Notes under the pieces: model-generated
What the model was told of the DNA's origin: nothing
Databases searched by the model: none
What the model saw: the letters and a program-made list of their open reading frames with translations, nothing else
Program-made: the position numbers and the translations under genes
Shown here: one piece after another, positions 5,961-26,048 of the stretch
Position numbering within the stretch: the stretch's first letter is position 1
Layout of the letters: each line of letters starts with the position of its first letter
NCBI GenBank assembly: GCA_963695855.1
Contig: CAVOHZ010000004.1
Location: 70,877 to 134,876 of the forward strand
Origin: an uncultured Nitrososphaerales archaeon
GTDB taxonomy: Archaea; Thermoproteota; Nitrososphaeria; Nitrososphaerales; Nitrososphaeraceae
Reading direction: 5' to 3'
DNA length: 64,000 bases

Positions 5961-6212
5961 ATCAAATTTATCAAAACCAAATAGTATAAAATCATTTATT
6001 ATTCTAAAAATATTCAGATGACAGACGACTAGCCCGAATTCTGCATCTATTTGACTCTTCTTTTACCTTCTGTGTTCAACTTTATGTGGATTTTTCGAAT
6101 TTAACAATAAATTCAACAGCATGATCTATATCATTTTTTTTTATCTTACTATATGTAATATCTAGTGAGATATTTTTTGAGCACGATAGAAAATAGATGG
6201 TAACAATGGCTA

Positions 6213-6303
6213 CAAGGTGGTAACAAACAAGAGCAAGGTGGTAACAAACAAGAGCAAGGTGGTAACAAACAAGAGCAAGGTGGTAACAAACAAGAGCAAG
6301 GTG
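6213..6303 (+). repeat. 21-bp tandem repeat CAAGGTGGTAACAAACAAGAG, 4 perfect copies plus a partial copy
   Basis: Units start at 6213, 6234, 6255, 6276 and 6297 (partial); a degenerate TGGTAACAA precedes them near 6198. Confidence 0.97.
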
Positions 6304-6346
6304 AAAACAATAAAAGTATTTAAACTCCTTTTATAATGCATTTTAA

Positions 6347-6949
6347 ATGAGTGAAAGAACAATATTAAACAAATTTGAAAAGGAAAAACGTGTTGTACAA
6401 TTACATATAGAAGGAAAAACAATTCGCGAAATATCAGAACGAGTTCACATGTCATTTCGAGATATATCAAAAATAATTAAAGCGTATGACAAAAAATCAA
6501 GTTTGGAAAGTGTCATTGAAAATGATGAAATTAAGAAAAATCAGCGTATTAAAAAATTGTCCACAAGTACTAGGGCCTTCAAATTATTCCTAAAAGGAAA
6601 GAAACCAGTTGAAGTATTAATAGAATTGAATATCTTTTATCCAGAGGTTGACAAATACTGGTCGCAATTTTTGAAATTAGAAAAACAGTATGAAGCTTAT
6701 GAATTCTATGAGAATTTCCGTTATGAGATGCCAGAATTATTATCTATAAGTGGCTTTATTAGAAGGAATAAGATAGATATATCAAATATTTCAAATATTT
6801 TGAAATATGCTTACAACCTATCGAATTTACAATCATATGGTAACAGACTTCAAAATCAAATAGCGGAATGGGAAAGAGAGAAAAAACTTTATATCGCTCC
6901 TCAAAATATTCAATTACCTCCATTCAGACCCATGCCAAATTATCGGTAG
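6347..6949 (+). CDS. HTH DNA-binding protein of unknown function (Nitrososphaeraceae-type)
   Basis: EKEKRVVQLHIEGKTIREISERVHMSFRDISKIIK helix-turn-helix; a second HTH-like segment (AFKLFLKGKKPVEV); C-terminal coiled coil. Confidence 0.7.
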   Translation: MSERTILNKFEKEKRVVQLHIEGKTIREISERVHMSFRDISKIIKAYDKKSSLESVIENDEIKKNQRIKKLSTSTRAFKLFLKGKKPVEVLIELNIFYPEVDKYWSQFLKLEKQYEAYEFYENFRYEMPELLSISGFIRRNKIDISNISNILKYAYNLSNLQSYGNRLQNQIAEWEREKKLYIAPQNIQLPPFRPMPNYR

Positions 6950-8485: not shown

Positions 8486-8674
8486 CTACGTCATCTTATT
8501 AAAATTATTTCCATAAAAATGATTGAATCTCTTGAAAATAACAAGACATTGCTTATTATCAAAATAATAATTTGATCCTGAAATATATTCGATAATAATA
8601 TCTTTATCGTCAGTTGATGCTAGTGGTTTGCCACATAAGGAACAGACTGATTCAGAAAGATTTGTAATACTCAT
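8486..8674 (-). CDS. Stand-alone TRASH/YHS-like Cys metal-binding protein
   Basis: CSLCG...YYFD...C; closely similar to the N-terminus of the kinase at 15129..16598. Confidence 0.75.
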   Translation of the reverse strand: MSITNLSESVCSLCGKPLASTDDKDIIIEYISGSNYYFDNKQCLVIFKRFNHFYGNNFNKMT

Positions 8675-8689
8675 ATCCCTGTTTTGCTC

Positions 8690-8857
8690 TTATATAAAAA
8701 AACGAGAATCATCACAATCGCCATTATCATGATATTTGTGAATATATCGGTAGTCGAAGGATATTGCCATCTTGTTCCTTTCCTTTCCTTTCATGACTTC
8801 AAAATCTAAAGTTTTCCATCTCCTTCCTTCCAAGAAATTCTGCTTGGCTAATTGCAT
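8690..8857 (-). CDS. Small hypothetical protein (55 aa, not in ORF track)
   Basis: ATG at 8857 to TAA at 8690: MQLAKQNFLEGRRWKTLDFEVMKGKERNKMAISFDYRYIHKYHDNGDCDDSRFFI; it ends 15 bp before the Cys-domain gene on the same strand. Confidence 0.4.
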   Translation of the reverse strand: MQLAKQNFLEGRRWKTLDFEVMKGKERNKMAISFDYRYIHKYHDNGDCDDSRFFI

Positions 8858-8930
8858 ATACTACTATTGACATACTAAAATATAAAGCCTATTATATTTT
8901 TGGTTAACATATGATAAATAAATCACCTGA

Positions 8931-9521
8931 TCAGTTAACGTACATTAAGTCAACTATATGATATTGCCATAAAAAAAAGGTTAATTTGTATTTAGATACA
9001 TTATTCAATACAAAGCTTACTACGGTATCTTTACAATTTCCAAAAACATAAACGTCAGCTACTGATTCTTCTGTCAAGACACCATCATCTTTTCTTTCAC
9101 ATAATAACATCTTCTTCCCTGCCAAAAAGATTTCATTATCACCTTCATCATACAAAACATTATTTCCTATATTTCCAATTAAATGATCTTCAAAAAAATA
9201 TTCTATCGATACATCATTATCCGAATTTCCAACGAGTTGATCATTTGCAAAATACCCGTAAACCGTGGCATTTCCAGATTTTCCATATAAATGCTCTTTT
9301 CCTTTTTCACCACATACACAATCATCTAACATCGTTCCGATAAAATTTTCTTTATCCAAAGTAACATTTTTCATGTTATTGCATCTCATATTTTCCACGA
9401 TATCTGACACATCGCCATAACCTTTGTTGTTAAACAAGGTAATAACAGAAGTGACCATGGTTAATATTACATTCAAATACAAAAAATCTCGCTGGTTGAT
9501 GAAGGCCTTTTGTGCGATCAC
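8931..9521 (-). CDS. Degenerate RTX/hemolysin-type Ca-binding repeat protein
   Basis: Eroded nonapeptide repeats (HLYGKSGNA, QLVGNSDND, HLIGNIGNN) and a D.VVSF ending similar to the intact paralog at 32978. Confidence 0.5.
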   Translation of the reverse strand: MIAQKAFINQRDFLYLNVILTMVTSVITLFNNKGYGDVSDIVENMRCNNMKNVTLDKENFIGTMLDDCVCGEKGKEHLYGKSGNATVYGYFANDQLVGNSDNDVSIEYFFEDHLIGNIGNNVLYDEGDNEIFLAGKKMLLCERKDDGVLTEESVADVYVFGNCKDTVVSFVLNNVSKYKLTFFLWQYHIVDLMYVN

Positions 9522-9601
9522 GTCGTTAATGATATGTTATCATTATTAAGATTTTTTATCAAAAAAATATATGCCCTTTTTTTATGGCACTATTTGAACA
9601 A

Positions 9602-10699
9602 TTAACCACCCATTACAGGTGGTTGTCGTAATAGCCATAGCTTCTTCTGATCACAAAATGACATTTGTTTTTCATCGCACTTATCTGAATTGAGATCGTA
9701 GTCTGCATGTATAGATAAAATTATAGGCGATCGAGACAAGCCTGATTCTCCTGGAGTAGCATAGAGTATAGAGTCTCCATCGTTTCCACAAACAAAGAGC
9801 CCTGAATTTGACGTCCAGAATATCCTAGGACTAATAACTATATCATATAATGGATGTTTTTTGTATTTAGAACCTGTTATTGTAGGTGAACAGTTATTAG
9901 TTTCTTTTAACGCAGTAAATTTTAGAATTTCCGACGTAATTAGATAACTCTTTGAAATATTTATTCGCGCAGGATTGTTAAAAGCTCTAAAAAGTATTCT
10001 TAAATTACAGATATCACAACTTTTTTGTGTTTTTATTGACACAAGATTACCATATCTTTCACCAATTAACAATTGATTATTTTCGTTCTCAAAATTATCA
10101 TCGGTTGTGGACGATAAACATAAATCATTTTTTTTAGAAGGGTAGGAATCTTCTTTTTGTAATGAGATCCTAGCTTTGAATGAACTTTTTAGAAATTTTT
10201 TGAAAATTGTTATTTCTATATTTATTAGAAATTTGTACTGTCTTTTCCCCCTGAAAGATTTTAGTCCGATTTGATTGGCAGTTAAAAAAATTTTGATATT
10301 TTTCCTGGCTTGATTGTTTTTGATATCATTTAACTGAGGATAGAAAAGCATACAGTTTCCAGTATCCCTTGTCATATACTCTGCATCCATACCATATCCA
10401 ATTTTAAAAGCGCCGTTTTCCTTACCTTCTTGTTCTATCTTCCAATCTATTTTAGAGGCCACTGGCAACTGAAAAATATGACTTTGTTGATGTCTGCATA
10501 ATGCTTTTATGATGACATAGCTTTTTACATCCAATTTAATTGGAATAGCATCTCTGATTCCAAAACTGATTTCATTAATTGGAAATGCAATATCTACGTC
10601 ACAATAACGATGAATTTCGTAATCAACAGTGGAAAGAAAATTTGAATCACTAATCTCATCATCTTTACCATCATCATAATGTGGTATATTAGTAAACAT
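9602..10699 (-). CDS. Hypothetical protein (365 aa)
   Basis: Long ORF, co-oriented with the signalling/Par cluster; no motif recognised. Confidence 0.6.
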   Translation of the reverse strand: MFTNIPHYDDGKDDEISDSNFLSTVDYEIHRYCDVDIAFPINEISFGIRDAIPIKLDVKSYVIIKALCRHQQSHIFQLPVASKIDWKIEQEGKENGAFKIGYGMDAEYMTRDTGNCMLFYPQLNDIKNNQARKNIKIFLTANQIGLKSFRGKRQYKFLINIEITIFKKFLKSSFKARISLQKEDSYPSKKNDLCLSSTTDDNFENENNQLLIGERYGNLVSIKTQKSCDICNLRILFRAFNNPARINISKSYLITSEILKFTALKETNNCSPTITGSKYKKHPLYDIVISPRIFWTSNSGLFVCGNDGDSILYATPGESGLSRSPIILSIHADYDLNSDKCDEKQMSFCDQKKLWLLRQPPVMGG

Positions 10700-10976
10700 T
10701 AGATTATTGAATACAGAATATTATTAATTAAGTATAGCTATGTTGTTTATCTCAGTAACCAAAATCAAGTTGGTAATTTAATAAAATTCCTTTTTTTTAT
10801 TATTAAAGATTGCTGTTTTATAACGTTTGAGGTATTCAGATCTTTTAAAATCAATAGCAGAATACAATTATGACATTTACCTTGTATGTAAAAGATATCG
10901 AAATACTGAATTCATGTCTGAAAGATAAGCGAAATTGACCGATCACCCGATAAAAAGAACGCAGCAATACATTTCT

Positions 10977-12374
10977 CTACTCTATATTACATGTGACGAC
11001 TTTCTCAAGTAACCATATTTTCTCAAAAGAGCCAACATATGTAAGTATAGTTTCTTCTTTATTAGTATAAACTGCAAAATGTTTCTCTGTATCTTGTGCA
11101 GAATCTTTTTTTGTATCCAATACTATAGCTTTTCGTAAGTCTACTAGCAATATCATAGCATCTGATGTCAAAGTTTTTCCAAAGTATCTAAGATTGATAT
11201 TTGAATTTTTAAATATTGATTTCTCTAAATTATTGTTTGTAATAAAAGCAGATACATGCATCAAAATTCTAACTAGTATTCCCTCATTAGCTTTTTTATT
11301 AACAAGATCCAAAACATCTTTTATTTCTGGCACTTCCAACCATCTAGGTGCACAGAACAGGATACTTATTTCACTATTTGCATAATTTATCAATTCATAA
11401 AGGAGAGTGTAAATTCTTTTTTCATCTTCTATATTTTCAATAAATGGTTTTTTTTCGTCTAAAAATTCTTTAAAATTTCCTTTGAGTGAGATTATCTGTC
11501 TATTGTATTCATCTGCATTAAATGTATCATCAAGATCTTTATTTAGTAATTGACTGAGCTTGTAGTACCAAATTAAAGCTGCACTTAGAAACAAATACGA
11601 AAATGCATAGACCACATTCCATAGCCACTCAGTAACCAAAATAAGTTCTTCGCTGATTGTGGACGTATATGTGTATCCAAAATCTGCTAATGTCAGCAAT
11701 GCCATTGAAATACAGAATAACATCCAATGATAAACGAAAGGATCTTTTTTTGGTAATTTGTAAATAATAAGAAGTGCAGAAACAAGCAATATTGTATCCA
11801 ATATATAGTACAAGATATTGATAGTGAGGTCTAATAACTGAGAACTGAAATCAATTCCACTGATTATCATATGAACGGTCGTTAATACGGGAATTAAAGA
11901 AACTACAAAAGATACAAAAATAATGGTGCCACGAGAGATAGATTTATTCTTATTAACGACAGTAAAAGATTTATAAATATGATAAATTAGGAAACCGTAT
12001 CCGATAAAATAAAACAATTCTGCAATAGATGGATAAGGAACAGGAATATTCAGCATAAATTGATAGAACATGTATGTAGCTTCCCCCATAAACCAAAAAA
12101 CTACTCCGATAAAAACAGCTTTGAACTTTCTAACCTCCATTTTTTTAATACGAGTAGTCATTAAAAGTACAGATATCCCAGTACATATACCTAAAAAGAT
12201 TAATGTGACCATACTATTATATTTATTAGTTTTTTCTATATCCATCAAGTAGATCATTAAATAGATAAAAAATGTGCTTATAGAAGCAGTCAGTAAAAAA
12301 CCAGAAAACAGATACTTTAATTCATATCTCACTCTGAATAGAACATCTGTTTTTGGACTTTCTGCATTATACAA
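10977..12374 (-). CDS. Multi-TM membrane sensor with C-terminal PLD/TrmB-like domain and no kinase domain
   Basis: About 8 TM segments with W..GE..Y...PYPSIAELFY (sensor module seen in front of cyclases/kinases). The tail G..VRIL...MILLVD...YTN.....Y...FEKIW matches the middle domain of the kinase at 15129. Confidence 0.7.
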   Translation of the reverse strand: MYNAESPKTDVLFRVRYELKYLFSGFLLTASISTFFIYLMIYLMDIEKTNKYNSMVTLIFLGICTGISVLLMTTRIKKMEVRKFKAVFIGVVFWFMGEATYMFYQFMLNIPVPYPSIAELFYFIGYGFLIYHIYKSFTVVNKNKSISRGTIIFVSFVVSLIPVLTTVHMIISGIDFSSQLLDLTINILYYILDTILLVSALLIIYKLPKKDPFVYHWMLFCISMALLTLADFGYTYTSTISEELILVTEWLWNVVYAFSYLFLSAALIWYYKLSQLLNKDLDDTFNADEYNRQIISLKGNFKEFLDEKKPFIENIEDEKRIYTLLYELINYANSEISILFCAPRWLEVPEIKDVLDLVNKKANEGILVRILMHVSAFITNNNLEKSIFKNSNINLRYFGKTLTSDAMILLVDLRKAIVLDTKKDSAQDTEKHFAVYTNKEETILTYVGSFEKIWLLEKVVTCNIE

Positions 12375-12559
12375 CTAGTTGTTATATAATACCAATCTAA
12401 TAGTAATTATATCTATTCTTTTTATTAAACGATGGTTCATTTATTTATGATTTTCTATGTTTATTTTTTCTACCAAAAGATATATTCGATATCTACTTAC
12501 TACATCATAACTATTTACTGTCATTTTTTGTTATTCATAAGAACAAAATTTTATATAAA

Positions 12560-12583
12560 AAATTTTTCGGCGCCGAAAAATTT
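12560..12583. promoter_or_regulatory. Perfect 24-bp palindrome AAATTTTTCGGCGCCGAAAAATTT (candidate parS / protein-binding site)
   Basis: Loop-less inverted repeat with a GC core in very AT-rich intergenic DNA, about 120 bp past the parB stop; followed by tandem ATTTGTGCATTT x2 (12580-12603). The sequence is certain, the function is inferred. Confidence 0.5.
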
Positions 12584-12700
12584 GTGCATTTATTTGTGCA
12601 TTTTAAAAAAATTACACATCATGAAGTAAAATAATAGGAAAAATAAACAAAAAATGAAAATAAAAATAATGGTAATGAAAATAATGGAAACGGAAAAAAT

Positions 12701-13564
12701 CTAGATTTTCTTTTTCTCTTTTAGCAGGATGTCTATCTGACTATGAAGCATGTTTTTGTGCTGCATCAATATCTCATACACGGTCCAGTTATCCTCAACA
12801 TCTTCAATTATGGAGGCCAGTTTATTCATGGCTACTCTCACTGCAATGATAGCCTTATCAAAAGATTTCTGAGTCCTTGCATCGATATCAACTATCTTGG
12901 TTGTAAAGTCAAATATTTCTTCAGGATGCTCTGAGTTTTTCATCTCATCTTTTAACATACGTACCTGTCTTGAAGAAAGCTTTCTCTTTTTAATCAATTC
13001 AGCCAATTTTGATTGATGTTCTTCGTCTTTTATCGGAAGCAATTCCTCTGCAAGACTTGGTTTTATCTCGTTGTTTGAGATTGACTGAATTATAGTATCC
13101 GGAAAAGTCAACATCCTTATACGTTTATCGATATAACTTGCACTTTTACCCAGTTTTGTAGCAAGTTCGGATATTCCACCCCACCCGTAAGTAGATACAT
13201 AATCTTTGAATGCACGTGCTTCATCTATTGGATTTAGATTTTTAGAGTGAATATTTTCCATCAGTGATACTTCGAAAGCATCCTTGTCATCAAGCTCTAC
13301 AACATGACAGAGAATTTTACGCCATCCGAGCATTTTACAAGCATTGTATCTTCTTGTACCTGCAACAATTTCGTATTTTAAATCATCAGTCATCCTTACA
13401 ATTATAGGTTGAAGAAGACCTTTTTCCTTTATAGAATAACATAATTCATGTATATCCTCATGTAGATTATTTCTGTAATAGTACTTGAATAGTTTAATCT
13501 TTGAGATATCTACATTCTCTAGGACTCCAATTACACTATTTGAAGTGGAATGTATTTTTTGCAT
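12701..13564 (-). CDS. parB: ParB/Spo0J-family partition protein
   Basis: GLLQPIIVR, YEIVAGTRRYNA (GxRR CTP-binding box), EN....LNPIDEA, and HTH ISELATKLGKSASYI. Confidence 0.9.
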   Translation of the reverse strand: MQKIHSTSNSVIGVLENVDISKIKLFKYYYRNNLHEDIHELCYSIKEKGLLQPIIVRMTDDLKYEIVAGTRRYNACKMLGWRKILCHVVELDDKDAFEVSLMENIHSKNLNPIDEARAFKDYVSTYGWGGISELATKLGKSASYIDKRIRMLTFPDTIIQSISNNEIKPSLAEELLPIKDEEHQSKLAELIKKRKLSSRQVRMLKDEMKNSEHPEEIFDFTTKIVDIDARTQKSFDKAIIAVRVAMNKLASIIEDVEDNWTVYEILMQHKNMLHSQIDILLKEKKKI

Positions 13565-13640
13565 GTGAAATATTCAGTTACAGACTATATAACCTTGTTG
13601 GACCTGTATAACAACTATAAAAAGAATTACTTTTTATTTT

Positions 13641-14507
13641 CTAGCTATTTGTTTCTAGTTTTTCTATAAGTGCGTAAATCTTGCTTGCAAATGGATGTTC
13701 AGGATATAGCAAACTGGTAAGAAATTCTTTTTGACTAAACTGGATATCACAATAACATGGTATTTCTGAAATAATATCCAGATCTATGTCACGGGATAAT
13801 TTTTGCAATGTACTTTGTTGAGTTTGTTGAGGAGAAAAAGAAGACCCATCTTTTCCCTTATTATCTAATGTTATCAATGGATGATGCTGCTCTGGAGGAA
13901 TGGTACAGTAACCTGAACCTCTATTTAGTAAAAGATAACACATTGTTCCAAATTTAGTAAATGAGCCATAAATCTCACTAGCCATTCTTTTGGTACCATC
14001 AACATCAAGGTCACCCATTTTCAATGTCAAAAGAACGACGTCTGAAACAGCAAGAGCGTTGATGGACCAATATCTAACTCCTGGACTTGTATCGATGACG
14101 ATAAAATCAGCATTTTTTTTCATTATCAGTTCTTCTCTTAATAGTATAAAGTTTCTAAGGAATTGCATTTGAGAACCTTGTTTAGATATGTTTCCGTCCA
14201 GTTTGTAAATTTCTTCCTTATTGGAGTTTGCCATACTTACAAATAACTTGCCTTTTATATCAGAGGAAATTGTTTTAGTAATATCAACGCAAATGTCATC
14301 AACTGATGCAGTACCGAAAAGAAAATCGTTTATCCATTTTTTTGGGTCTTTTAAGTCAAAATAGGAACCCAAGCTTGGAGCATAAACATCTAGATCTAAA
14401 AGAAATACCCTATATCCTTTCTTTGCCAATAGTACACTGAGATTGGTTGCTATTGTTGTCTTGCCTGTTCCACCTTTGTAAGAGTGAAAAGCAATGCATC
14501 TAGTCAT
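13641..14507 (-). CDS. ParA/MinD-family ATPase
   Basis: Deviant Walker A KGGTGKTT, LLDLD, IVIDTSPG; directly upstream of parB. Confidence 0.9.
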   Translation of the reverse strand: MTRCIAFHSYKGGTGKTTIATNLSVLLAKKGYRVFLLDLDVYAPSLGSYFDLKDPKKWINDFLFGTASVDDICVDITKTISSDIKGKLFVSMANSNKEEIYKLDGNISKQGSQMQFLRNFILLREELIMKKNADFIVIDTSPGVRYWSINALAVSDVVLLTLKMGDLDVDGTKRMASEIYGSFTKFGTMCYLLLNRGSGYCTIPPEQHHPLITLDNKGKDGSSFSPQQTQQSTLQKLSRDIDLDIISEIPCYCDIQFSQKEFLTSLLYPEHPFASKIYALIEKLETNS

Positions 14508-14582
14508 TTCCTTACAAAAAAAGGTGCCATAAACCCACTAATAAACTTGTGAGAGGTATATTTGGATGATAGATTTGTTTTT

Positions 14583-14951
14583 TCATACTATTGCTTTTTC
14601 GATATGTTTCAAGAGCTCTTCTATTGAGATAGGCTTTTGTATAAAGCACTTATGATCCATATTGGGGTATTCCTCTAATAGCCCTTCATAATATGCCTTA
14701 AATGAAGTTATGAAACAGACTCTCAGATTGGTATCTATTTTTTTTAATTCCTGAACTAGTTCAAATCCATTCATTCCCTGCATTCTGATATCTATAAGAG
14801 ATAAATCGTAAATTCCAGGTTTAAAATTATTTAAAGCAATTTCAGGATCATTAAAGGTATCAACGTTATAACCACTGTTTTCTAATCCTAACTTGAAGGA
14901 TAAAGTAGTACCTTGATCATCGTCAACAATAAGGATCTTCTTTTTTTCCAT
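14583..14951 (-). CDS. Single-domain response regulator (receiver)
   Basis: ILIVDDD, phospho-acceptor LIDIRM, FITS, QKP. Confidence 0.93.
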   Translation of the reverse strand: MEKKKILIVDDDQGTTLSFKLGLENSGYNVDTFNDPEIALNNFKPGIYDLSLIDIRMQGMNGFELVQELKKIDTNLRVCFITSFKAYYEGLLEEYPNMDHKCFIQKPISIEELLKHIEKAIV

Positions 14952-15128
14952 AATAAAAACTCGTTTACAAAATTTAATAATGATTATATATAAAAATATT
15001 TACTACAAAAAAATATAGAATTGTAACTAGGAAGTTTCAAAGGAATTGGAAACTGGCTGGCTGGCTAACTGAGGATGGAAAAAAGAAACTGGAGATTGCA
15101 CCAAACGTAGAAAGATGATTAAAGAAAG

Positions 15129-16598
15129 CTATTTTTCTGTTTTTATAGGTACGGTAAAACTAAATGTCGCACCTTTGTCTTGATTATTCTCTGCCCATAT
15201 CTTTCCGCCATGTTTTTCTATTATATTTTTGCAAATATATAGTCCCAGCCCTGTTCCTGATTTTGAACCTGTCACAAACTTTGTAAATAGCTTATCTTTT
15301 ATCTTTGATGGAATACCAGGCCCGTTATCTGAGAACTTTACAAGGACATCGTTATTTTGTCTCTGTACAGATACAATTACTTGGCCTTCTTCTAAAATCT
15401 TTATAGCATTATTGATTATATTTAAAAAAACTTGGTTTACACGTAATTTGTCCGCAACCAGTCTAACTGACTTTTCTTTACTCTTTAAAACTAAACTAAT
15501 ATTTTTCCCTTTGGTTTGATTTTCCAACTCCCTTAATAGATCTCTTACAGATTCCATTAAATCAAATTCTTCAAGATTAAGAGTTAAAAGCTCACCATCT
15601 ATACGAGCCACATCTAAAAGATTATCCGTAAGAAACTGAAGTTTTTTAGCATTGCTGACAATTATCCTAAGTAAATCCTCCTTCTTATCAGGATCAAGGT
15701 TCTTGTTAGAAAGCATAACTTCGGCAAGACCTAAAATAGGCTGAATTGGATTTCGTATCTCGTGTGCTGCTTCATTAATAAATTGTCTTTGTGTCTGACT
15801 TGTCTCTTTTAATTGCTGGTAGAGGTCATCTGCTTTTTTATAGATATCCGCCTGTTTCCACAAATTCTCAAATATAGATACATAATATAATACTGTTGAC
15901 TTGCTATTTGAATACGTAGACAATCCCATCGCATCAATAGAATCTTCCGCTGAATCTTTTTGTAATTCAACCGCAAGAGAGAATCTTCTGTCAATTATCA
16001 AAATAGTGATGTTGAGGTGCAATGGTTCTGGTAGATACTGTACGCCTATTGCATAATCATTTTTCAAATTATCAACGGTTGTTTGTAGCTTTTCATCGAA
16101 AGGAGTTAGAATTCTAATATTAACATTTTTTGATGGATCCTCTTTTATCTTTTTTATAATTGCAAATCCGTCTGCATGATTTATTCGCCTGTAAAAGGCA
16201 TTTGCAGAAGAAAAAAGTAATAGAATTTCTTGTTCTGCGGATCCAACCAGTTTAATAGCCGTTGCTAGTGCCTCTTGAGGATTCTTGATTACTTCGATAT
16301 AATGATCTTTTGATTCAATATCTATTTCTCTTATTTCGTCATATGACGGTACAACTTTGTTCCAAAAAGGATCTGAAATAATTTCTGTATTTCCTGTAAA
16401 ACTTGTAATATTTTTTCCATAAAAATGGTCAAGTCTTTTGAACATGGTGACACATTGATTTGTATCAAAAAAATACTTCGATCCAGAAATAGATTCTTGA
16501 ATAATTTCGTTAGGGTCCCTATTTATCAGAGATTTGCCACACAGGGAACATTTGAATTCAGTTTTGTTATTTGAAGTATTTATATGATTACTCATCAT
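15129..16598 (-). CDS. Cytoplasmic sensor histidine kinase: TRASH/YHS-like + PLD-like + HisKA + HATPase
   Basis: H-box AAHEIRNPI, N-box NIINNAIK, DNGPGI, GTGLGLYIC; N-terminal CSLCG...YFFD...C; no TM segment. Confidence 0.92.
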   Translation of the reverse strand: MMSNHINTSNNKTEFKCSLCGKSLINRDPNEIIQESISGSKYFFDTNQCVTMFKRLDHFYGKNITSFTGNTEIISDPFWNKVVPSYDEIREIDIESKDHYIEVIKNPQEALATAIKLVGSAEQEILLLFSSANAFYRRINHADGFAIIKKIKEDPSKNVNIRILTPFDEKLQTTVDNLKNDYAIGVQYLPEPLHLNITILIIDRRFSLAVELQKDSAEDSIDAMGLSTYSNSKSTVLYYVSIFENLWKQADIYKKADDLYQQLKETSQTQRQFINEAAHEIRNPIQPILGLAEVMLSNKNLDPDKKEDLLRIIVSNAKKLQFLTDNLLDVARIDGELLTLNLEEFDLMESVRDLLRELENQTKGKNISLVLKSKEKSVRLVADKLRVNQVFLNIINNAIKILEEGQVIVSVQRQNNDVLVKFSDNGPGIPSKIKDKLFTKFVTGSKSGTGLGLYICKNIIEKHGGKIWAENNQDKGATFSFTVPIKTEK

Positions 16599-16678
16599 TT
16601 TCCACGAGGTACTATATTAAATATGTATAATTTTTATCTTTTTTAAACTATTTGAATTATAAAGTAAATTTGATATTG

Positions 16679-16889
16679 CTAATGAGACGAGGTTACCAGA
16701 TCCATGCAGAATTCATTGCCATAAATTCCTGAAAATCTTTCAAAGAGAATTTTACAATTTTTTTTATCAAAAAGAAACTCGTATGTAGTATCGTTTATGG
16801 ATCTGATGGTTTTTATCAGGGTATCAGTATTTTCTATTGTACAACCACATAAACTACATTTTAATTTCAGGATAATATATTATGCTCAT
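16679..16889 (-). pseudogene. Third TRASH/YHS-like Cys-domain gene with a +1 frameshift (not in ORF track)
   Basis: Removing one A from the A4 run after codon 9 gives MSIIYYPEIKCSLCGCTIENTDTLIKTIRSINDTTYEFLFDKKNCKILFERFSGIYGNEFCMDLVTSSH*, collinear with 8486..8674. Confidence 0.75.
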
Positions 16890-19269: not shown

Positions 19270-20151
19270 CTAAGGCATATTCATATTCATATTTGACTGT
19301 CCATCCATCATATTCATATTCATATTCATATTCATATTCGTTCTAGTTTTCAAATTGAAGGCATCTTGCAATTCTGGATGTATAGTAAGGTGCACCAACC
19401 TCATCAGATCGCTAGCAGATCCAACATTTAATAAAATACTATGCAAATTGTCTATGTTCTTTTCCAATTTATCTAACAACAAAGAATCAGTTTTGGATTC
19501 ACCAGAAAGCGAGTTTGTGGATTTTAAATAATTAAATATATTTTTCACCTCCATGGTCAATGCAAGAGCTGTCTCATAATTATCATAATTGAAAATTGTA
19601 TTATTTGTTGAAATGAGTTTTTGATATTGCTTATAGTTAGGACTGGAGTAATTGATAGGAATATTAGAATTTATAGATTTTTTAAAATGATCCAAAACGC
19701 CCAAGTTAGACATATTGGTCAAATCAACATCCAAAATGATTGCTGAGGCGTATTCACGTAGAATTTGATCAATTAGATCAGCTGTTACTAAAGAGTGAAT
19801 AGTACTGTTTTTACTAGATATCTCCTTGTTGTATCTTTTAATAAAATCATTATCATCAACTATATCATCGTCAACGTAATAGACATCATTTACTAGCCTT
19901 GCAGCATTGTCAGAGTGATCCATTGATAGTGTTATATTTACTGGAAAATTCTTCTTTGCAAGTTCTAGCTGAATAGCTGCTTGTTTTGACATCGCAAGAA
20001 ATGTTACAGAATCATCAGAAGTAAAACTATGACCAAATGCATAGTTGTCAGTATTAGTATTTGAAATACTATTCAAAGAGAAAATCAAACCCATTCCAAA
20101 TAAAATGGATAAAAGTGAGATATTATGATGGGTATAATAATGGCTACTCAT
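19270..20151 (-). CDS. Exported helical protein with Met-Asn repeat tail
   Basis: Signal peptide ending AFG|HSF; C-terminus NMNMNMNMNMMDGQSNMNMNMP encoded by an ATGAAT microsatellite. Confidence 0.75.
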   Translation of the reverse strand: MSSHYYTHHNISLLSILFGMGLIFSLNSISNTNTDNYAFGHSFTSDDSVTFLAMSKQAAIQLELAKKNFPVNITLSMDHSDNAARLVNDVYYVDDDIVDDNDFIKRYNKEISSKNSTIHSLVTADLIDQILREYASAIILDVDLTNMSNLGVLDHFKKSINSNIPINYSSPNYKQYQKLISTNNTIFNYDNYETALALTMEVKNIFNYLKSTNSLSGESKTDSLLLDKLEKNIDNLHSILLNVGSASDLMRLVHLTIHPELQDAFNLKTRTNMNMNMNMNMMDGQSNMNMNMP

Positions 20152-23563: not shown

Positions 23564-24676
23564 ATGGCAAAAATCGTCAATCATGCTATTATTTTTGTTG
23601 TGATGTCAATATTTTTTGTTACATGCACGTTGGGATCTGTAAATGCTCAAAGCTCTAACATTACAGAAAAAGAGGATTTATCCCTTAACGACTTGTTTGA
23701 CATAGTTGAAAATTCTGTTGTACAGATAACTAAAACAATACCCTCTGAAAATCCATTTGGTCCAAACAACGAGAATAGTACTTCTCTAGGATCAGGATTC
23801 ATTTACAGCAATGATGGACATATAGTTACAAATAATCACGTAGTAGAACACGCAAAATCTGTAGATGTAACTTTCATTAACGGTGATAGATATACTGCTA
23901 ATGTAACTGGGACGGATGTTTTTAGCGATCTAGCTGTAATCAAGATTAATGAAAATGTTACAAAATTACCCTTGGTGCTAACTCTTGGAAATTCATCTCA
24001 GCTTAAGGTCGGAGATCAAGTAGTTGCAATAGGAAATCCATTTGGATTAGAAGGATCGATGACAACAGGTATCGTAAGTCAAATAGGCAGGCTTTTGTCT
24101 GTTGATGACAAAGGATTTTCAATTCCAAATGCAATTCAGACTGATGCATCTATTAATCCAGGCAACTCTGGAGGGCCATTATTAGATATGAAAGGTCAGG
24201 TAATAGGGGTAAATACTGCTGGAATTTTTCCAGGAGGAATCGGACTTGCTGTTCCTTCCAATACTGTAGCGCGCATAATTCCAGTACTTATTGAACATGC
24301 AAATTATACCCATCCATGGCTTGGAATAACAGGAACCACGCTTACATCAGACCTCGCCAAGAGAGAACACTTGGATAGAAGTCAAAAAGGTGTTATACTT
24401 GACACTATAGTAAAGGCAAGTCCTGCTGATTTGGCCGGATTAAACGGAAGTATGGTGAATCAATATGGTGAAAAGAGAGGAGGAGATCTGATTACTGCTA
24501 TAGATGGAAAGCCAATATTAAAAATTGAAGACTTGATTTCTTACTTGGAGATCAATAAAGCTGTAAACGAGAATGCCACCTTATCTATATATAGAGATGG
24601 AGAGATTTTGGAAAAAGAGATCATGTTGAAGAGTAGACCAGTACCCACACCACCTATCAATCAAACGAAGAGTTAG
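23564..24676 (+). CDS. HtrA/DegP-like serine protease with PDZ domain, exported
   Basis: Signal peptide; catalytic triad TNNHVV, SDLAV, GNSGGP; C-terminal PDZ (SPADLAGL..GDLITAIDG). Confidence 0.93.
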   Translation: MAKIVNHAIIFVVMSIFFVTCTLGSVNAQSSNITEKEDLSLNDLFDIVENSVVQITKTIPSENPFGPNNENSTSLGSGFIYSNDGHIVTNNHVVEHAKSVDVTFINGDRYTANVTGTDVFSDLAVIKINENVTKLPLVLTLGNSSQLKVGDQVVAIGNPFGLEGSMTTGIVSQIGRLLSVDDKGFSIPNAIQTDASINPGNSGGPLLDMKGQVIGVNTAGIFPGGIGLAVPSNTVARIIPVLIEHANYTHPWLGITGTTLTSDLAKREHLDRSQKGVILDTIVKASPADLAGLNGSMVNQYGEKRGGDLITAIDGKPILKIEDLISYLEINKAVNENATLSIYRDGEILEKEIMLKSRPVPTPPINQTKS

Positions 24677-24820: not shown

Positions 24821-24851
24821 TTTATTTATGCACGAAAGCTATTATATTTGT

Positions 24852-26048
24852 ATGAAATTATCTAAATCGCTTATCTTTCTTTTCTCTTTAGCATTCATTT
24901 TTATAGTTTATACCGGTATCAAATTAGTTAATCCAAATACATCATCTCACTCTCAAGAAGAAAAGGTACAAAGAATAATTGGAGGTCACACCCCAGGATA
25001 TAGCACTTCAACAACAAATAGGGAACTTATTGATCCAATTTCTCAAAAGATACCAATTGAAGATGCAGTAATAGATCCTGATAAATACTTGAGAGATTTT
25101 AATTATGGAAGAGTATCAGTCTCAGATAATGGCACGACAATAAGAGATTTTACAATTGTTGCTTCAGATCAAGACATAAAGGAAATTTCCCCAGGTGTAT
25201 TTTATAATGTTTGGACATTTAATGGAACAGTACCTGGACCAACAATCCGTGCTGTTGAAGGAGATATTGTGAGGATCAATTTCATAAACAATGGATCAAA
25301 ATTTCATACAATGCATTTTCATGGAATTCATAAGGCAGAAATGGATGGAGTATTTGAAGGAGTAGCTCCTGGAGGAAAATTTACTTATGAATTTATAGCC
25401 GAGCCATTCGGAGTTTTTCCATACCACTGTCATATCCAACCACTGGAAGAACACATAGTTCACGGTTTGTATGGAGTTTACATAGTTGATCCCAAAATTC
25501 CTAGACCTGAAGCTGATGAGATGGTCATGGTAATGAATGGTTATGATACCGATTTCGATACTGAAAATAACTTCTATACTGTAAATGGCATTCCTTATTA
25601 TTACATGCATCATCCTATTCAGATTAAGCAAAATGATCTAGTTAGAATTTATCTAGTAAATATGCTGGAATTTGATCCTATCAATAGTTTTCATTTACAT
25701 GCAAATCTTTATAATGTATACAAGACCGGAACAAAAACAACTCCAGACGAATATACAGATATGATAACCATGAGTCAGGGAGAAAGAAGTATTTTAGAAT
25801 TCAAATACATGTATCCCGGAAAATATATGTTTCATGCTCACAAGACGGAATTTGCTGAGAAGGGATGGATGGGTTTATTTCTCGTAAAAGAATCAGTTAA
25901 TGAAAAAAATAATACAAGCTACACAAATACTGCCGATACTATGTCTGACGAAAATGACCCGAACTTGAGTACAGGAACTTATAATAAGATAACACAAAAA
26001 GAAGCAGCAGCAGAGATTCTGAAAAATTTAACCAATGGAGGTAACTAA
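24852..26048 (+). CDS. Two-domain multicopper oxidase, membrane-anchored
   Basis: HTMHFHG, YHCH..H (type-1 Cu in domain 1), FHLH, FHAH; N-terminal TM; probable start at 24852. Confidence 0.9.
   Translation: MKLSKSLIFLFSLAFIFIVYTGIKLVNPNTSSHSQEEKVQRIIGGHTPGYSTSTTNRELIDPISQKIPIEDAVIDPDKYLRDFNYGRVSVSDNGTTIRDFTIVASDQDIKEISPGVFYNVWTFNGTVPGPTIRAVEGDIVRINFINNGSKFHTMHFHGIHKAEMDGVFEGVAPGGKFTYEFIAEPFGVFPYHCHIQPLEEHIVHGLYGVYIVDPKIPRPEADEMVMVMNGYDTDFDTENNFYTVNGIPYYYMHHPIQIKQNDLVRIYLVNMLEFDPINSFHLHANLYNVYKTGTKTTPDEYTDMITMSQGERSILEFKYMYPGKYMFHAHKTEFAEKGWMGLFLVKESVNEKNNTSYTNTADTMSDENDPNLSTGTYNKITQKEAAAEILKNLTNGGN

What the first reader, a model, noticed from the sequence alone, without database searches (positions are those of the whole stretch)
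8486..16889. Candidate new system: a two-component pathway with Cys metal-binding domains joined to a ParA-ParB-parS-like module
Seen: one co-oriented minus-strand run of Cys-domain gene (frameshifted) > Cys-domain histidine kinase > lone receiver > ParA/MinD ATPase > ParB with intact GxRR box and HTH > perfect palindrome > membrane sensor > unknown 365-aa protein > ... > second Cys-domain gene. The receiver-parA and parA-parB gaps are only about 75 bp. Known: ParB CTPases load at palindromic parS, and ParA/MinD ATPases also position protein cargo such as chemosensory arrays. The best-characterised archaeal segregation systems (SegAB, AspA-ParB-ParA) are not coupled to kinases. Inference: the receiver has no output domain, so ParA/ParB may be its effector. 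That would give signal-controlled DNA segregation, spreading-type gene silencing, or positioning of the sensor complex. No replicase or integrase is nearby to mark this as a plain plasmid par locus.
Basis: partly seen in the sequence, partly recalled or inferred. Interest (0 to 1): 0.85.

Follow-up and report, generated by a model that had tools for sequence, protein, structure and literature searches.

The report
Signal-linked archaeal ParB with dispersed palindromes
A Nitrososphaeraceae archaeon keeps a sensor kinase, a receiver, a MinD/ParA-like ATPase and a ParB-type DNA-binding protein in one conserved row, and the palindrome behind the ParB gene recurs at about fifteen conserved places between genes, which points to a genome-wide, possibly signal-controlled DNA switch and not to a plasmid partition locus.

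Summary
The gene row is real: Cys-domain histidine kinase, lone receiver, MinD/ParA-like ATPase, ParB, and a perfect 24-bp palindrome, all on the minus strand. The small Cys-domain ORF upstream has lost its start codon; it is not frameshifted.

ParA-ParB adjacency holds in 18 of 24 same-genus genomes. The flanking genes are syntenic too, so that alone is weak evidence. Stronger evidence comes from other genera of the family. There the orthologous receiver lies beside a ParA-like gene (4 of 10 genomes) or beside the ParB homolog (2 genomes), in different arrangements.

The palindrome is not unique. Its core TTTCGGCGCCGAAA occurs 15 times in this genome, always between genes. It is found in 24 of 24 same-genus genomes, partly at orthologous positions.

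In four other lineages the same ParB clade carries a symmetric variant of the palindrome within 30 bp of its stop codon; in a fifth (G029) the contig ends inside the site. This makes it ParB's likely cognate site.

Several copies lie upstream of cyclase-receiver genes.

The "ParA" belongs to a Nitrososphaeraceae-only family that usually pairs with Cys-domain signalling proteins.

Best reading: a KorB/Noc-like ParB with dispersed sites, genetically tied to a two-component pathway. Binding and signal control are inferred, not shown.

The parts
16682..16864 (-). 61-codon Cys-domain (YHS/TRASH-like) small ORF without an ATG/GTG/TTG start in this genome
   Evidence: Translation and DNA alignment with the intact TTG-started ortholog of G019 (L033:10034-10219). 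The two differ by substitutions only, with no indel.
15129..16598 (-). Soluble histidine kinase: N-terminal CxxC...C domain, a PLD/TrmB-like middle domain, HisKA and HATPase_c
   Evidence: Pfam HisKA 1e-13 and HATPase_c 4e-28. No hydrophobic segment. The N-terminal Cys domain is a sub-threshold YHS/TRASH look-alike. The middle domain is homologous to the C-terminus of the 465-aa protein. Atlas gives leads only, 0.81-0.86. There are 3 paralogs of 56-60% identity on contig C8.
14583..14951 (-). Stand-alone receiver (REC)
   Evidence: Pfam Response_reg 6e-21 only. D10, D11, D54, T82 and K106 are invariant in 17 orthologs (A2).
13641..14507 (-). MinD/ParA-like P-loop ATPase of a Nitrososphaeraceae-restricted family with invariant C201, C251-x-C253 and H271
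   Evidence: Pfam AAA_31/CbiA. It scores below every NCBIfam equivalog cut-off. AF2 model pLDDT 80. Best folds are archaeal MinD, FlhG, FleN, Soj and McdA. Invariant columns are from A1.
12701..13564 (-). ParB/Spo0J-family protein (ParB_N + HTH_ParB + own helical C-terminus)
   Evidence: Pfam. TIGR00180 scores above its cut-off. PDB Spo0J 1vz0 7e-27 and Noc 7ng0 1e-26. The GTRR box is kept. Box III ENIQR reads ENIHSK. There is no G[KR]G ParA-binding motif.
12560..12583 (.). Perfect 24-bp palindrome, the likely cognate ParB site (core TTTCGGCGCCGAAA)
   Evidence: The core is kept within 110 bp of the parB stop in 10 of 12 same-genus loci although the rest of the spacer has diverged. Symmetric variants follow ParB homologs in four other lineages, and a site cut by the contig end follows the one in G029.
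10977..12374 (-). Polytopic membrane protein with a C-terminal domain shared with the kinase; a variable member of the locus
   Evidence: At least 5 hydrophobic segments. Blastp to HK residues 94-247 gives 2e-08. It is absent between parB and the 365-aa gene in L034-L036. There are 3 full-length paralogs in the genome.
9602..10699 (-). 365-aa protein of unknown family, syntenic within the genus
   Evidence: No Pfam, NCBIfam or PADLOC hit. Orthologs of 39-85% identity lie in 8 of 12 loci. Atlas scores stay under 0.85.
8931..9521 (-). 196-aa ORF with an RTX-type calcium-binding repeat; membership in the system is doubtful
   Evidence: Pfam HemolysinCabind 1.8e-07. Present in only 2 of 12 loci.
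8486..8674 (-). 62-aa stand-alone Cys-domain protein, 53% identical to the kinase N-terminus
   Evidence: Blastp. YHS E 0.0016, below cut-off. Orthologs in L032-L034.

Best explanation
This is a chromosomal locus conserved in one genus of Nitrososphaeraceae. It is not a plasmid par cassette.

Its DNA-binding member is a ParB/Spo0J-family protein. The palindrome just 3' of its gene is most likely its cognate site. In this genus that site has multiplied to about 15-20 intergenic copies, which are kept at orthologous places between species. ParB therefore most likely acts genome-wide, in the manner of KorB (a long-range regulator) or Noc (a dispersed-site organiser). A single-centromere partition role is less likely. 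A subset of sites lies 110-800 bp upstream of cyclase-receiver genes, so part of its job is probably control of a second-messenger signalling gene set.

The three upstream genes are a soluble Cys-domain kinase, a stand-alone receiver and a lineage-specific MinD/ParA-like ATPase. I read them as the input side. The kinase phosphorylates the receiver. The phospho-receiver then alters the ATP-dependent state of the ParA-like protein and/or acts on ParB. That in turn modulates ParB's engagement with its sites, much as IncC modulates KorB.

Shown here: gene content, synteny, the ParB-palindrome association, and site conservation.
Inferred: ParB binds the palindrome, regulates genes at a distance, and is under two-component control.
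For: (1) Families. ParB_N + HTH_ParB, with TIGR00180 above its cut-off. Spo0J and Noc are the best solved relatives.

(2) ParB-palindrome link.
- The core TTCGGCGCCGAA lies within 110 bp after the parB stop in 10 of 12 same-genus loci, although the spacers are otherwise diverged.
- The exact 14-mer occurs in 24 of 24 same-genus genomes, 0 of 12 other genera of the family, and 1 of 24 genomes of other families.
- That single copy lies 30 bp (by the match coordinates) after the ParB homolog of G054. The reversed-pattern control gave 0 in 60 of 61 genomes.
- Symmetric variants follow the stop of ParB-A-clade genes within 30 bp in G039 (TTTTGCGGCGCCGCAAAA), G027 (TTTCGGTACCGAAA) and G025 (TTTTCGATGTCGAAAA). 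In G029 the contig ends inside TTTTTTCGACGTCG.
- None was seen behind 16 ParB genes of other clades.

(3) Dispersed, selected sites.
- All 15 exact copies in G000 lie between ORFs of 80 aa or more.
- Information content is confined to about 22 bp.
- Orthologous placement recurs beside radical-SAM/PNPOx (G000, G012, G016), thioredoxin/plastocyanin (G000, G012), an MFS gene (G000, G003), and the unknowns 307, 318 and 156.
- In G016 the arms are kept and the centre is relaxed to RYRY: 20 matches of TTTCGNNNNCGAAA (14 with an RYRY centre) against 1 in the control.

(4) Cyclase-REC link.
- In G000, 4 of 10 cyclase(-REC) genes have a site 113-788 bp upstream.
- In G012, G003, G009 and G002, 7 of 22 non-parB sites lie 147-530 bp upstream of such a gene.

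(5) Coupling to signalling.
- ParA-ParB are adjacent in 18 of 24 same-genus genomes.
- The reciprocal-best ortholog of this REC lies next to the ParB homolog in G029 and G025.
- It lies within 3 kb of a ParA-like gene in G025, G027, G030 and G032, which is 4 of 10 genomes with loci fetched. The arrangements differ.
- The full-length ortholog of this kinase lies next to the ParA-like gene in G025 and G032.
- Contigs of RNA libraries from 3 of 4 studies bridge the REC-ParA spacer (records 3, 17 and 25). DNA carry-over is not excluded.

(6) Not origin-linked where testable. In the complete genome G025, ParB-A and its site lie at 0.517 Mb and orc1/cdc6 at 1.481 Mb.

(7) Precedent. KorB is a ParB-family CTP clamp that represses at a distance from palindromic OB sites. 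Its binding at 12 sites is modulated by the ParA IncC (PMC11790492, passages and a reference title).
Against: - No binding, CTPase, phosphotransfer or interaction data exist. The ParB-palindrome assignment rests on co-occurrence.
- Within the genus the flanking genes (methyltransferase, EamA transporter, 293-aa gene) are syntenic too. The HK-REC-ParA-ParB order alone is therefore not evidence of coupling.
- Solo ParB-A copies without ParA/REC/HK exist in the same genus: L041 in an IS-rich stretch, plus L042, L020 and L027. Outside the family, G054, G039 and G027 carry ParB plus site in unrelated contexts. ParB can therefore work without the other three.
- The ParA-like paralogs of G000 have no ParB or REC neighbour.
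- ParB has no LG[KR]GL-type ParA-binding motif, and its box III Arg is replaced.
- Sites lie in divergent, tandem and convergent spacers at no fixed distance from gene starts. That is unlike a classical operator.
- The cyclase-REC enrichment was not seen at the 21 variant sites fetched from G016 and G029.
- 11 of 15 exact G000 sites are not next to such genes.
- 4 G000 sites sit at the edge of a repeat of about 520 bp. Part of the copy number may therefore come from duplication.
Confidence: 0.5

Rival explanations
1. Adjacency without coupling. An ordinary thaumarchaeal two-component pair happens to sit upstream of an orphan ParB with its site. The ParA-like ATPase serves the signalling proteins, and ParB works on its own.
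For: - General synteny of the whole region within the genus.
- Solo ParB-A genes with a palindrome exist inside and outside the genus.
- The usual partner of the ParA-like family is a KaiC-Cys-cyclase protein, not ParB.
- Stand-alone receivers are the norm (PMC5847659).
- ParB lacks the ParA-binding motif.
Against: - The same receiver orthogroup is found beside ParB in G029 and G025 and beside ParA-like genes in four other genera. The arrangements are rearranged.
- With about 20 REC genes and 3 ParA-like genes per genome, chance adjacency within 3 kb is about 1% per genome (my estimate).
- The palindromes are enriched at genes that carry receiver domains.
Confidence: 0.25
2. A true chromosomal ParABS segregation system. 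The palindromes are centromeres, ParB loads and spreads there, and the ParA-like ATPase moves the complexes. The two-component genes time segregation.
For: - ParA-like and ParB genes are adjacent, followed by a palindrome. This is the classic parA-parB-parS order.
- The site's TTTC...GAAA arms resemble bacterial parS. The parS consensus is recalled, not taken from a call.
- Multiple parS copies per chromosome are normal in bacteria.
Against: - The ATPase fails every ParA/MinD equivalog cut-off: ParA_partition 64.8 against 180 bits.
- Its family is restricted to one archaeal family and usually lacks a ParB neighbour.
- ParB lacks the ParA-binding motif and the box III Arg.
- Sites are spread over at least 5 contigs.
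- In G025 the single site is about 0.96 Mb from orc1/cdc6.
- Relatives with ParB-A but no ParA-like gene exist: G039 and G054.
Confidence: 0.12
3. The palindrome is not a ParB site. It is either the operator of another genus-specific transcription factor, with parB as one regulon member, or an RNA-level element such as a terminator hairpin.
For: - Every copy is intergenic and some lie in convergent spacers.
- The sequence can fold as a hairpin flanked by T and A runs.
- Symmetric changes preserve a hairpin as well as a DNA palindrome.
Against: - In G054, G039, G027 and G025 the only gene shared by the palindrome's surroundings is parB.
- The same 18 bp, not merely a stem, is kept at all sites and across species.
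- Sites also lie in divergent spacers, where no transcript ends.
- In G027 the loop-equivalent centre changed CG to TA, staying self-complementary. A hairpin loop would not need that.
Confidence: 0.08
4. A metal-handling or metal-sensing module. The Cys-domain kinase senses a metal. The ParA-like ATPase, with its invariant Cys3His set, is a metal-binding SIMIBI NTPase in the manner of CooC, HypB or Mrp/NBP35. ParB is a passenger or the transcriptional output.
For: - C201, C251, C253 and H271 are invariant in 34 family members.
- The recurrent partners all carry the YHS/TRASH-like Cys domain: the kinase, KaiC-Cys-cyclase and the 62-aa proteins.
- A ferritin-like gene lies between the kinase and the ParA-like gene in G032.
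- Some palindromes flank plastocyanin-like, tyrosinase and ZIP genes.
Against: - The Cys domain is only a sub-threshold YHS/TRASH match.
- The spatial arrangement of the Cys/His residues could not be inspected, because no coordinates were given out.
- Fold search ranks MinD, FlhG and Soj above HypB and Cfd1.
- Most genes beside the sites have no link to metals.
Confidence: 0.05

Closest known systems
KorB-IncC of IncP plasmid RK2 (ParB-family CTP clamp and global repressor with its ParA)
   Same: A ParB-family protein with a ParA-class gene beside it. Multiple dispersed copies of a short palindrome with T-rich/A-rich arms and a GC centre. The sites lie at variable, often long, distances from gene starts. 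Precedent: 12 OB sites, action at a distance by sliding, binding modulated by IncC (PMC11790492, passages and reference title).
   Different: Chromosomal and archaeal, not plasmid-borne. The Pfam KorB domain scores below its cut-off: 17.7 against 22.3 bits. No KorA-like clamp-locking partner was identified. There is no IncC-binding N-terminal peptide motif. It is linked to a kinase and a receiver.
Noc (nucleoid occlusion protein, orphan ParB paralog of Bacillota)
   Same: Best NCBIfam score and near-best solved relative. An orphan-type ParB without a ParA-binding motif. Many dispersed palindromic sites that are not origin-clustered.
   Different: The TIGR04285 score of 160 is far below the 315 cut-off. 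An N-terminal membrane helix was not tested. In archaea there is no FtsZ/Min context of the bacterial kind to occlude. The site centre is 6 bp instead of 4 (the NBS sequence is recalled).
Canonical bacterial ParABS (Soj-Spo0J-parS)
   Same: The parA-parB-palindrome gene order. ParB_N + HTH_ParB, GxRR box, deviant Walker A ATPase.
   Different: The ATPase is not a Soj ortholog. ParB lacks the ParA-binding motif and the box III Arg. The sites are dispersed. The survey in bioRxiv 10.1101/2025.10.10.680097 (passages) treats archaeal chromosomal parAB as probable contamination. That cannot apply here: 18 of 24 genomes of an archaeal genus show the adjacency.
Archaeal segregation systems SegAB and AspA-ParB-ParA of pNOB8
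   Same: Archaeal, with a Walker-type ATPase plus a site-specific DNA binder and a palindromic site (PMC5120986, passages).
   Different: In those systems the site binder is SegB or AspA, and pNOB8 ParB binds DNA non-specifically. Here ParB carries the bacterial-type HTH. No AspA or SegB homolog is present, and there are kinase and receiver genes.
MinD/ParA-class ATPases that regulate or position signalling machinery (FleN/FlhG with FleQ; TadZ/CpaE with a fused receiver-like domain; MinD4 of Haloferax)
   Same: The fold matches archaeal MinD, FlhG and FleN best. There is a genetic tie to a receiver domain and to signalling proteins.
   Different: No fusion. It has a family-specific C-terminal region with an invariant CxC, C and H. 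The TadZ and MinD4 parallels are recalled, not tested.

Membership tests
ParB/Spo0J/Noc family (DNA-binding ParB with HTH) | ParB N-terminal (CTPase-fold) domain plus ParB-type HTH | tested here: met
   PF02195 1e-22 and PF17762 5e-19, both above cut-off. TIGR00180 scores 131 bits against a cut-off of 58.45. Spo0J 1vz0 7e-27.
ParB/Spo0J/Noc family (DNA-binding ParB with HTH) | Box II GxRR (nucleotide-binding arginine pair) | tested here: met
   VAGTRRY aligns with GERRY of Spo0J. G.RR is kept in 17 of the 18 homologs aligned; the 18th (L048) is truncated there.
ParB/Spo0J/Noc family (DNA-binding ParB with HTH) | Box III ENLxR | tested here: not met
   It reads ENIHSK/ENIHSR in all 7 same-genus sequences aligned and ENIQAK in G029. 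Most other homologs keep ENIQR/ENVQR; L047 (G056) reads ENVQH. The functional weight of this Arg is recalled, not tested.
Canonical ParABS | N-terminal ParA-binding motif [LIF]G[KR]G[LIF] in ParB | tested here: not met
   No G[KR]G anywhere in the protein (sequence, alignment). The motif definition comes from bioRxiv 10.1101/2025.10.10.680097.
Canonical ParABS | Soj/ParA-type partition ATPase | tested here: not met
   NF041546 ParA_partition scores 64.8 against a cut-off of 180. TIGR01969 archaeal MinD scores 53.6 against 201.75. The deviant Walker A is present.
Canonical ParABS | Cognate palindromic site next to the par genes | tested here: met
   The 24-bp palindrome lies 117 bp after the stop. 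It is conserved in 10 of 12 loci, and variants follow distant homologs. Binding itself was not tested.
Canonical ParABS | Sites clustered near the replication origin | tested here: inconclusive
   G000 sites are spread over 5 contigs that cannot be ordered. orc1/cdc6 genes lie at C10:1712772 and C10:804613. In the closed genome G025 the single site is 0.96 Mb from orc1/cdc6.
KorB | KorB DNA-binding domain (PF08535) | tested here: not met
   17.7 bits against a cut-off of 22.3, E 0.0034. PDB KorB 8qa8 scores only 1.7e-07.
Noc | NCBIfam TIGR04285 score above cut-off | tested here: not met
   160 bits against a cut-off of 315.
Two-component system | HisKA with H-box plus HATPase_c; receiver with the acidic pocket, phospho-Asp, Thr and Lys | tested here: met
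   Pfam. HEIRNP is visible in the sequence. D10, D11, D54, T82 and K106 are invariant. Phosphotransfer was not tested.
TRASH/YHS metal-binding domain | Pfam YHS or TRASH model above cut-off; four metal ligands | tested here: inconclusive
   10 of 19 members hit YHS, 3 hit Arc_trans_TRASH and 2 hit TRASH_HVO_1752_C, all below cut-off. Only three Cys are invariant (A3). A profile search of the PDB found nothing meaningful.
Known anti-phage defence systems | Match to a PADLOC system protein | tested here: not met
   Only weak domain-level hits: P-loop, REC and HATPase.

The most novel reading that the evidence does not exclude
An archaeal genus has domesticated a ParB-type nucleotide-gated DNA clamp as the output device of a two-component pathway.

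A Cys-domain kinase phosphorylates a stand-alone receiver. The receiver sets the ATP state of a lineage-specific MinD/ParA-like ATPase. That ATPase gates ParB loading or retention at about 15-20 conserved intergenic palindromes. ParB spreading or sliding from these sites tunes neighbouring genes, among them a family of cyclase-receiver genes. This would wire phosphorelay, cyclic-nucleotide signalling and chromosome-bound ParB into one circuit.

It would be the first chromosomal ParA-like/ParB/parS-like system with a function in Archaea, and the first ParB under two-component control.
Probability: 0.25. Interest if true: 0.85.

Novelty: new variant of a known kind. Interest (0 to 1): 0.7.

Why it matters
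- Canonical HTH-bearing ParB proteins are regarded as essentially bacterial and plasmid-borne. A 2025 survey dismissed archaeal chromosomal parA-parB pairs as likely contamination (bioRxiv 10.1101/2025.10.10.680097, passages). Here the pair, with a cognate-looking site, is fixed in a whole archaeal genus.
- Most thaumarchaeal response regulators are stand-alone receivers without a known target or a conserved neighbourhood (PMC5847659, passages). This locus gives one receiver orthogroup two concrete candidate partners that can be tested in vitro.
- The defined 18-22-bp site, with about 15 conserved genomic positions, makes the hypothesis directly testable by EMSA or DAP-seq. No genetics in these slow-growing archaea are needed.
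- The site centre differs between lineages (GGCGCC, GGTACC, GACGTC/GACATC, relaxed RYRY in G016). The system is therefore a natural series for studying how ParB specificity evolves.

Tried and rejected
- Complex prediction, REC (A2) against the ParA-like protein (A1): verdict 'no answer', score 0.00 in both runs, controls not run. This is no evidence either way.
- Read laying. No contig in the four RNA runs bridged the ParA-ParB spacer or the HK-REC spacer, and the 465-aa gene was almost uncovered. Contig ends near 13536-13550 and 12677-12725 carry adapter loose ends, so they are not evidence for transcript ends.
- Plain plasmid or integrated-element par locus: rejected. There is no integrase, replicase or transposase among the 20 neighbouring ORFs, and the locus is syntenic across the genus. 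In G025, however, an archaeal-phage-type integrase lies about 1 kb beyond the ParB site, and the solo copy of G010 lies among transposase fragments.
- TFIIB-ParB pairs of thaumarchaeal ICEs (PMC6563490, passages): I did not recognise a TFIIB-like gene by eye beside the ParB genes in L044-L046. Those neighbours were not run through Pfam.
- MITE or repeat origin of all sites: rejected as a general explanation. Conservation is confined to about 22 bp over 46 sites. Four G000 sites do share a flanking repeat of about 520 bp. Rfam found no family there.
- Exact 18-mer in the 2.9 million viral contigs: 1 contig with one site, which by my estimate is about the chance level.
- Known defence system: no specific PADLOC match. 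The preprint 10.64898/2026.10.19.760177 on ParA-like NTPases in immunity does not contain the words receiver, TRASH, Thaumarch or Nitrososphaer (passages).
- Atlas searches for the kinase's middle domain and the 365-aa protein gave only leads under 0.9.
- The positions of the invariant Cys/His residues in the AF2 model could not be read. No coordinates are available to scripts.
- Literature. Searches listed no paper on this locus, this palindrome or a receiver-ParA-ParB link in Nitrososphaerales. I saw listings and abstract starts only, and supplements are closed, so supplementary tables of the ParB survey or the TCS census may hold these genes.

Full report
WHAT IS THERE. The window is G000:C4:70877-134876, part of a 3.55-Mb, 11-contig, roughly 30% GC genome. 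Public sources name its close protein relatives 'Nitrososphaeraceae archaeon'. On the minus strand, ORF listing and Pfam/NCBIfam give the following:
- a soluble histidine kinase (15129-16598; HisKA, HATPase_c);
- a receiver-only protein (14583-14951);
- a MinD/ParA-like P-loop ATPase (13641-14507);
- a ParB/Spo0J-family protein (12701-13564; ParB_N + HTH_ParB; TIGR00180 above cut-off);
- a perfect 24-bp palindrome (12560-12583);
- a polytopic membrane protein (10977-12374);
- a 365-aa protein of no known family;
- a 196-aa ORF with an RTX-type repeat;
- a 62-aa Cys-domain protein that is 53% identical to the kinase N-terminus.

Neighbouring genes are ordinary: SAM methyltransferase, EamA transporter, Sir2, Macro, HIT, HtrA-like protease, multicopper oxidase. 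No integrase or replicase is among them.

One detail is wrong. The small Cys ORF at 16682-16864 is not frameshifted. Compared with its intact ortholog it shows only substitutions, one of which destroys the TTG start.

The Cys domain (invariant C-x2-C ... C) resembles YHS/TRASH only below Pfam's thresholds.

IS THE ORDER CONSERVED? ParB of this type (70% identity or more) was found in 20 of 24 same-genus genomes. A second paralog type of 35-37% identity is present in most genomes of the genus and is also seen in other families of the order.

Combining the coordinates, ParA-like and ParB genes are adjacent on one contig in 18 of 24 same-genus genomes. The other six divide as follows:
- 3 are broken at contig ends (G008, G017, G023);
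- 2 have ParB copies without ParA upstream (G004, G021);
- 1 has neither gene (G006, 73% complete).

Of 12 loci fetched with long flanks, 10 hold HK-REC-ParA-ParB in the same order. In L040 the kinase is split into two ORFs. Two loci are solo ParB copies. The methyltransferase, transporter and 293-aa genes on the other side are syntenic as well, so genus-level order is weak evidence.

Outside the genus the picture is more telling. The ParA-like family exists in 34 of 36 genomes of family f1 and in only 1 of 24 genomes of other families. G000 has three paralogs.

In the other genera most copies are followed by a protein of about 500 aa. This is the ortholog of G000 C3:306162-307748. It combines a KaiC-like ATPase, the same Cys domain and a class III cyclase-like C-terminus (Guanylate_cyc 21.4 bits against a cut-off of 21.9).

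The receiver whose reciprocal best hit is this receiver lies as follows:
- divergently next to the ParB homolog in G029 and G025;
- next to or within 3 kb of a ParA-like gene in G027, G030, G032 and G025.

The full-length ortholog of this kinase lies next to the ParA-like gene in G025 and G032.

A quick ML tree places the genus's HK-REC-ParA-ParB copies in one clade. That clade is nested among cyclase-linked copies (SH-aLRT only, several open forks, two long branches).

Kinase, receiver, ParA-like ATPase and ParB thus keep finding each other in different arrangements. That is the signature of functional linkage. The ParB-ParA adjacency itself is a genus-level innovation.

THE PALINDROME. This was the most informative part.
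- Downstream of parB the core TTCGGCGCCGAA is kept in 10 of 12 same-genus loci, while the surrounding spacer is unalignable.
- Genome-wide, G000 has 15 exact copies of TTTCGGCGCCGAAA plus a few one- or two-mismatch variants. GGCGCC itself occurs only 68 times in 3.55 Mb.
- All 15 exact copies lie between ORFs, in divergent, tandem and convergent spacers.
- The exact 14-mer is present in 24 of 24 same-genus genomes (1-18 copies) and in none of 12 other genera of the family.
- It is present in 1 of 24 genomes of other families. That single copy lies 30 bp (by the match coordinates) behind the ParB homolog of G054. The reversed control is 0 in 60 of 61 genomes.

ParB genes of the same clade are recognisable by the C-terminal ...ILMQHKN... 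helix. Those genes carry symmetric variants within 30 bp of their stop codon in G039, G027 and G025. In G029 the site is cut by the contig end. G028 has none. Sixteen ParB genes of other clades have none. Four loci where my pattern did not find the ORF were not examined.

The surroundings of these distant pairs share nothing but parB.

In G016, the most divergent species of the genus, the arms are kept but the centre is relaxed to RYRY (20 matches against 1 in the control). G029 has 8 matches against 1.

Site positions are conserved between species beside the same genes:
- radical-SAM/PNPOx;
- thioredoxin/plastocyanin-like;
- an MFS transporter;
- three unknowns.

Information content is confined to about 22 bp.

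I conclude that the palindrome is a protein-binding site under selection and that ParB is by far the best candidate binder. Binding has not been shown.

WHAT THE SITES SIT NEXT TO. Pfam on 30 flanking genes shows a recurrent neighbour: genes that fuse a class III cyclase domain to a receiver.
- In G000, 4 of 10 such genes have a site 113-788 bp upstream. One site is shared with a paralog of the Cys-domain kinase. Two duplicated genes have a site 2.2 kb upstream, one gene has a site beyond its 3' end, and three have none.
- In G012, G003, G009 and G002, 7 of 22 non-parB sites lie 147-530 bp upstream of such a gene.
- This was not seen at the 21 variant sites fetched from G016 and G029. G016 does have a cyclase-receiver gene divergent from the kinase, with a variant site 424 bp beyond it.
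- Other neighbours are a mixed set: Cdc48, tyrosinase, ZIP, GNATs, aldo-keto reductase, rhodanese.

Distances from gene starts vary. This does not fit a classical operator. It is what a sliding or spreading ParB would allow.

THE PROTEINS.
- ParB is a close sequence relative of Spo0J and Noc. It keeps GxRR. Throughout the genus it has ENIHS[K/R] where most other clades have ENIQR. It lacks the ParA-binding motif used in the 2025 survey.
- The ATPase keeps the deviant Walker A. It also has invariant C201, C251-x-C253 and H271.
- The ATPase's AF2 model (pLDDT 80) is nearest to archaeal MinD, FlhG, FleN, Soj and McdA.
- The receiver has all phospho-acceptor residues.
- No PADLOC system matches.

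EXPRESSION. Contigs of soil and rhizosphere RNA libraries from four studies cover parB, the ATPase, the receiver and parts of the kinase. Contigs from three studies bridge the receiver-ATPase spacer. These are contigs of RNA libraries, so DNA carry-over is not excluded and they do not prove a single transcript.

ORIGIN. orc1/cdc6 genes lie on contig C10, and the sites are spread over five contigs. In the closed genome G025 the ParB-A gene and its site are about 0.96 Mb from orc1/cdc6. I assume, as is usual in archaea, that the origin lies next to that gene.

COMPARISON AND VERDICT. The locus is a member of the ParB family and of two-component systems. It is not a member of canonical ParABS, Noc or KorB by the tests listed. 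It works most like KorB-IncC or Noc: a ParB with many dispersed palindromes.

What is new:
- the host domain;
- fixation in a genus;
- conserved site positions;
- the lineage-specific ATPase with Cys-domain partners;
- the recurrent tie to a receiver and kinase.

I rate the ParB-palindrome pairing at about 0.8, a genome-wide regulatory or organising role at about 0.55, and control by the two-component pathway at about 0.4. The combined reading is 0.5.

Noticed in passing
G000 contigs outside the window: L078, L079, L080, L084 (C8:213680, C8:265585, C8:311460, C10:1242528): Four palindromes lie at the edge of a shared repeat of about 520 bp. The repeat holds a 12-bp-stem hairpin and, on the other strand, a small conserved ORF of roughly 100 aa. 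In the C10 copy a second, one-mismatch palindrome closes the other end. No Rfam family matched.
   Followed up: partly
L085:4163-5749 (G000 C3:306162-307748) and its orthologs in L052-L065: A protein of about 500 aa combines a KaiC-like ATPase, the same CxxC...C domain as the kinase, and a class III cyclase-like C-terminus. It is the usual neighbour of ParA-like genes across the family. In G000 an IS fragment separates the pair.
   Followed up: partly
window 13641-14507 and alignment A1: The ParA-like family has invariant C201, C251-Y-C253 and H271, plus a nearly invariant C4. This could be a Cys3His metal site. Its geometry could not be checked.
   Followed up: partly
G000 C8:131453-132949, C8:141854-143341, C8:198568-200055: Three paralogs of the Cys-domain kinase (56-60% identity) cluster on contig C8. 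At least 9 cyclase-receiver fusion genes are scattered in the genome.
   Followed up: partly
L040:3134-4658 (G010): In G010 the orthologous kinase is split into two overlapping ORFs. This looks like a frameshift or an assembly error.
   Followed up: no
L041 (G010:C260) and L066:3958-5082 (G025): A solo ParB-A copy flanked by two palindromes lies among DDE transposase fragments. In G025 an archaeal-phage-type integrase lies about 1 kb beyond the ParB site. The ParB-site unit may have been mobile.
   Followed up: partly
G000 C1:81650-84967 and C9:187-3504: Two contigs carry the same stretch: a one-mismatch palindrome, a GNAT gene and a cyclase-receiver gene. This is either a recent duplication or an assembly duplicate.
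   Followed up: no
window 19270-20151 (minus strand) and window 6210-6470 (minus strand): The 293-aa protein ends in an (NM)n repeat. The 86-aa ORF at 6210-6470 ends in tandem TTLLLFV repeats and overlaps the HTH-like ORF 6347-6949 on the other strand.
   Followed up: no
G000 C10:878169-879050 (L051): The second ParB paralog (36% identity) is conserved across much of the order. It lies beside an Lrp/AsnC-like gene and a metal ABC transporter operon, about 73 kb from the second orc1/cdc6 gene. No palindrome of this kind follows it.
   Followed up: partly
window 24828-26048 and 23564-24676: A multicopper oxidase and an HtrA-like protease/PDZ gene lie about 8 kb upstream of the locus. An HtrA-like gene also neighbours the ParA-like locus of G030.
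   Followed up: no
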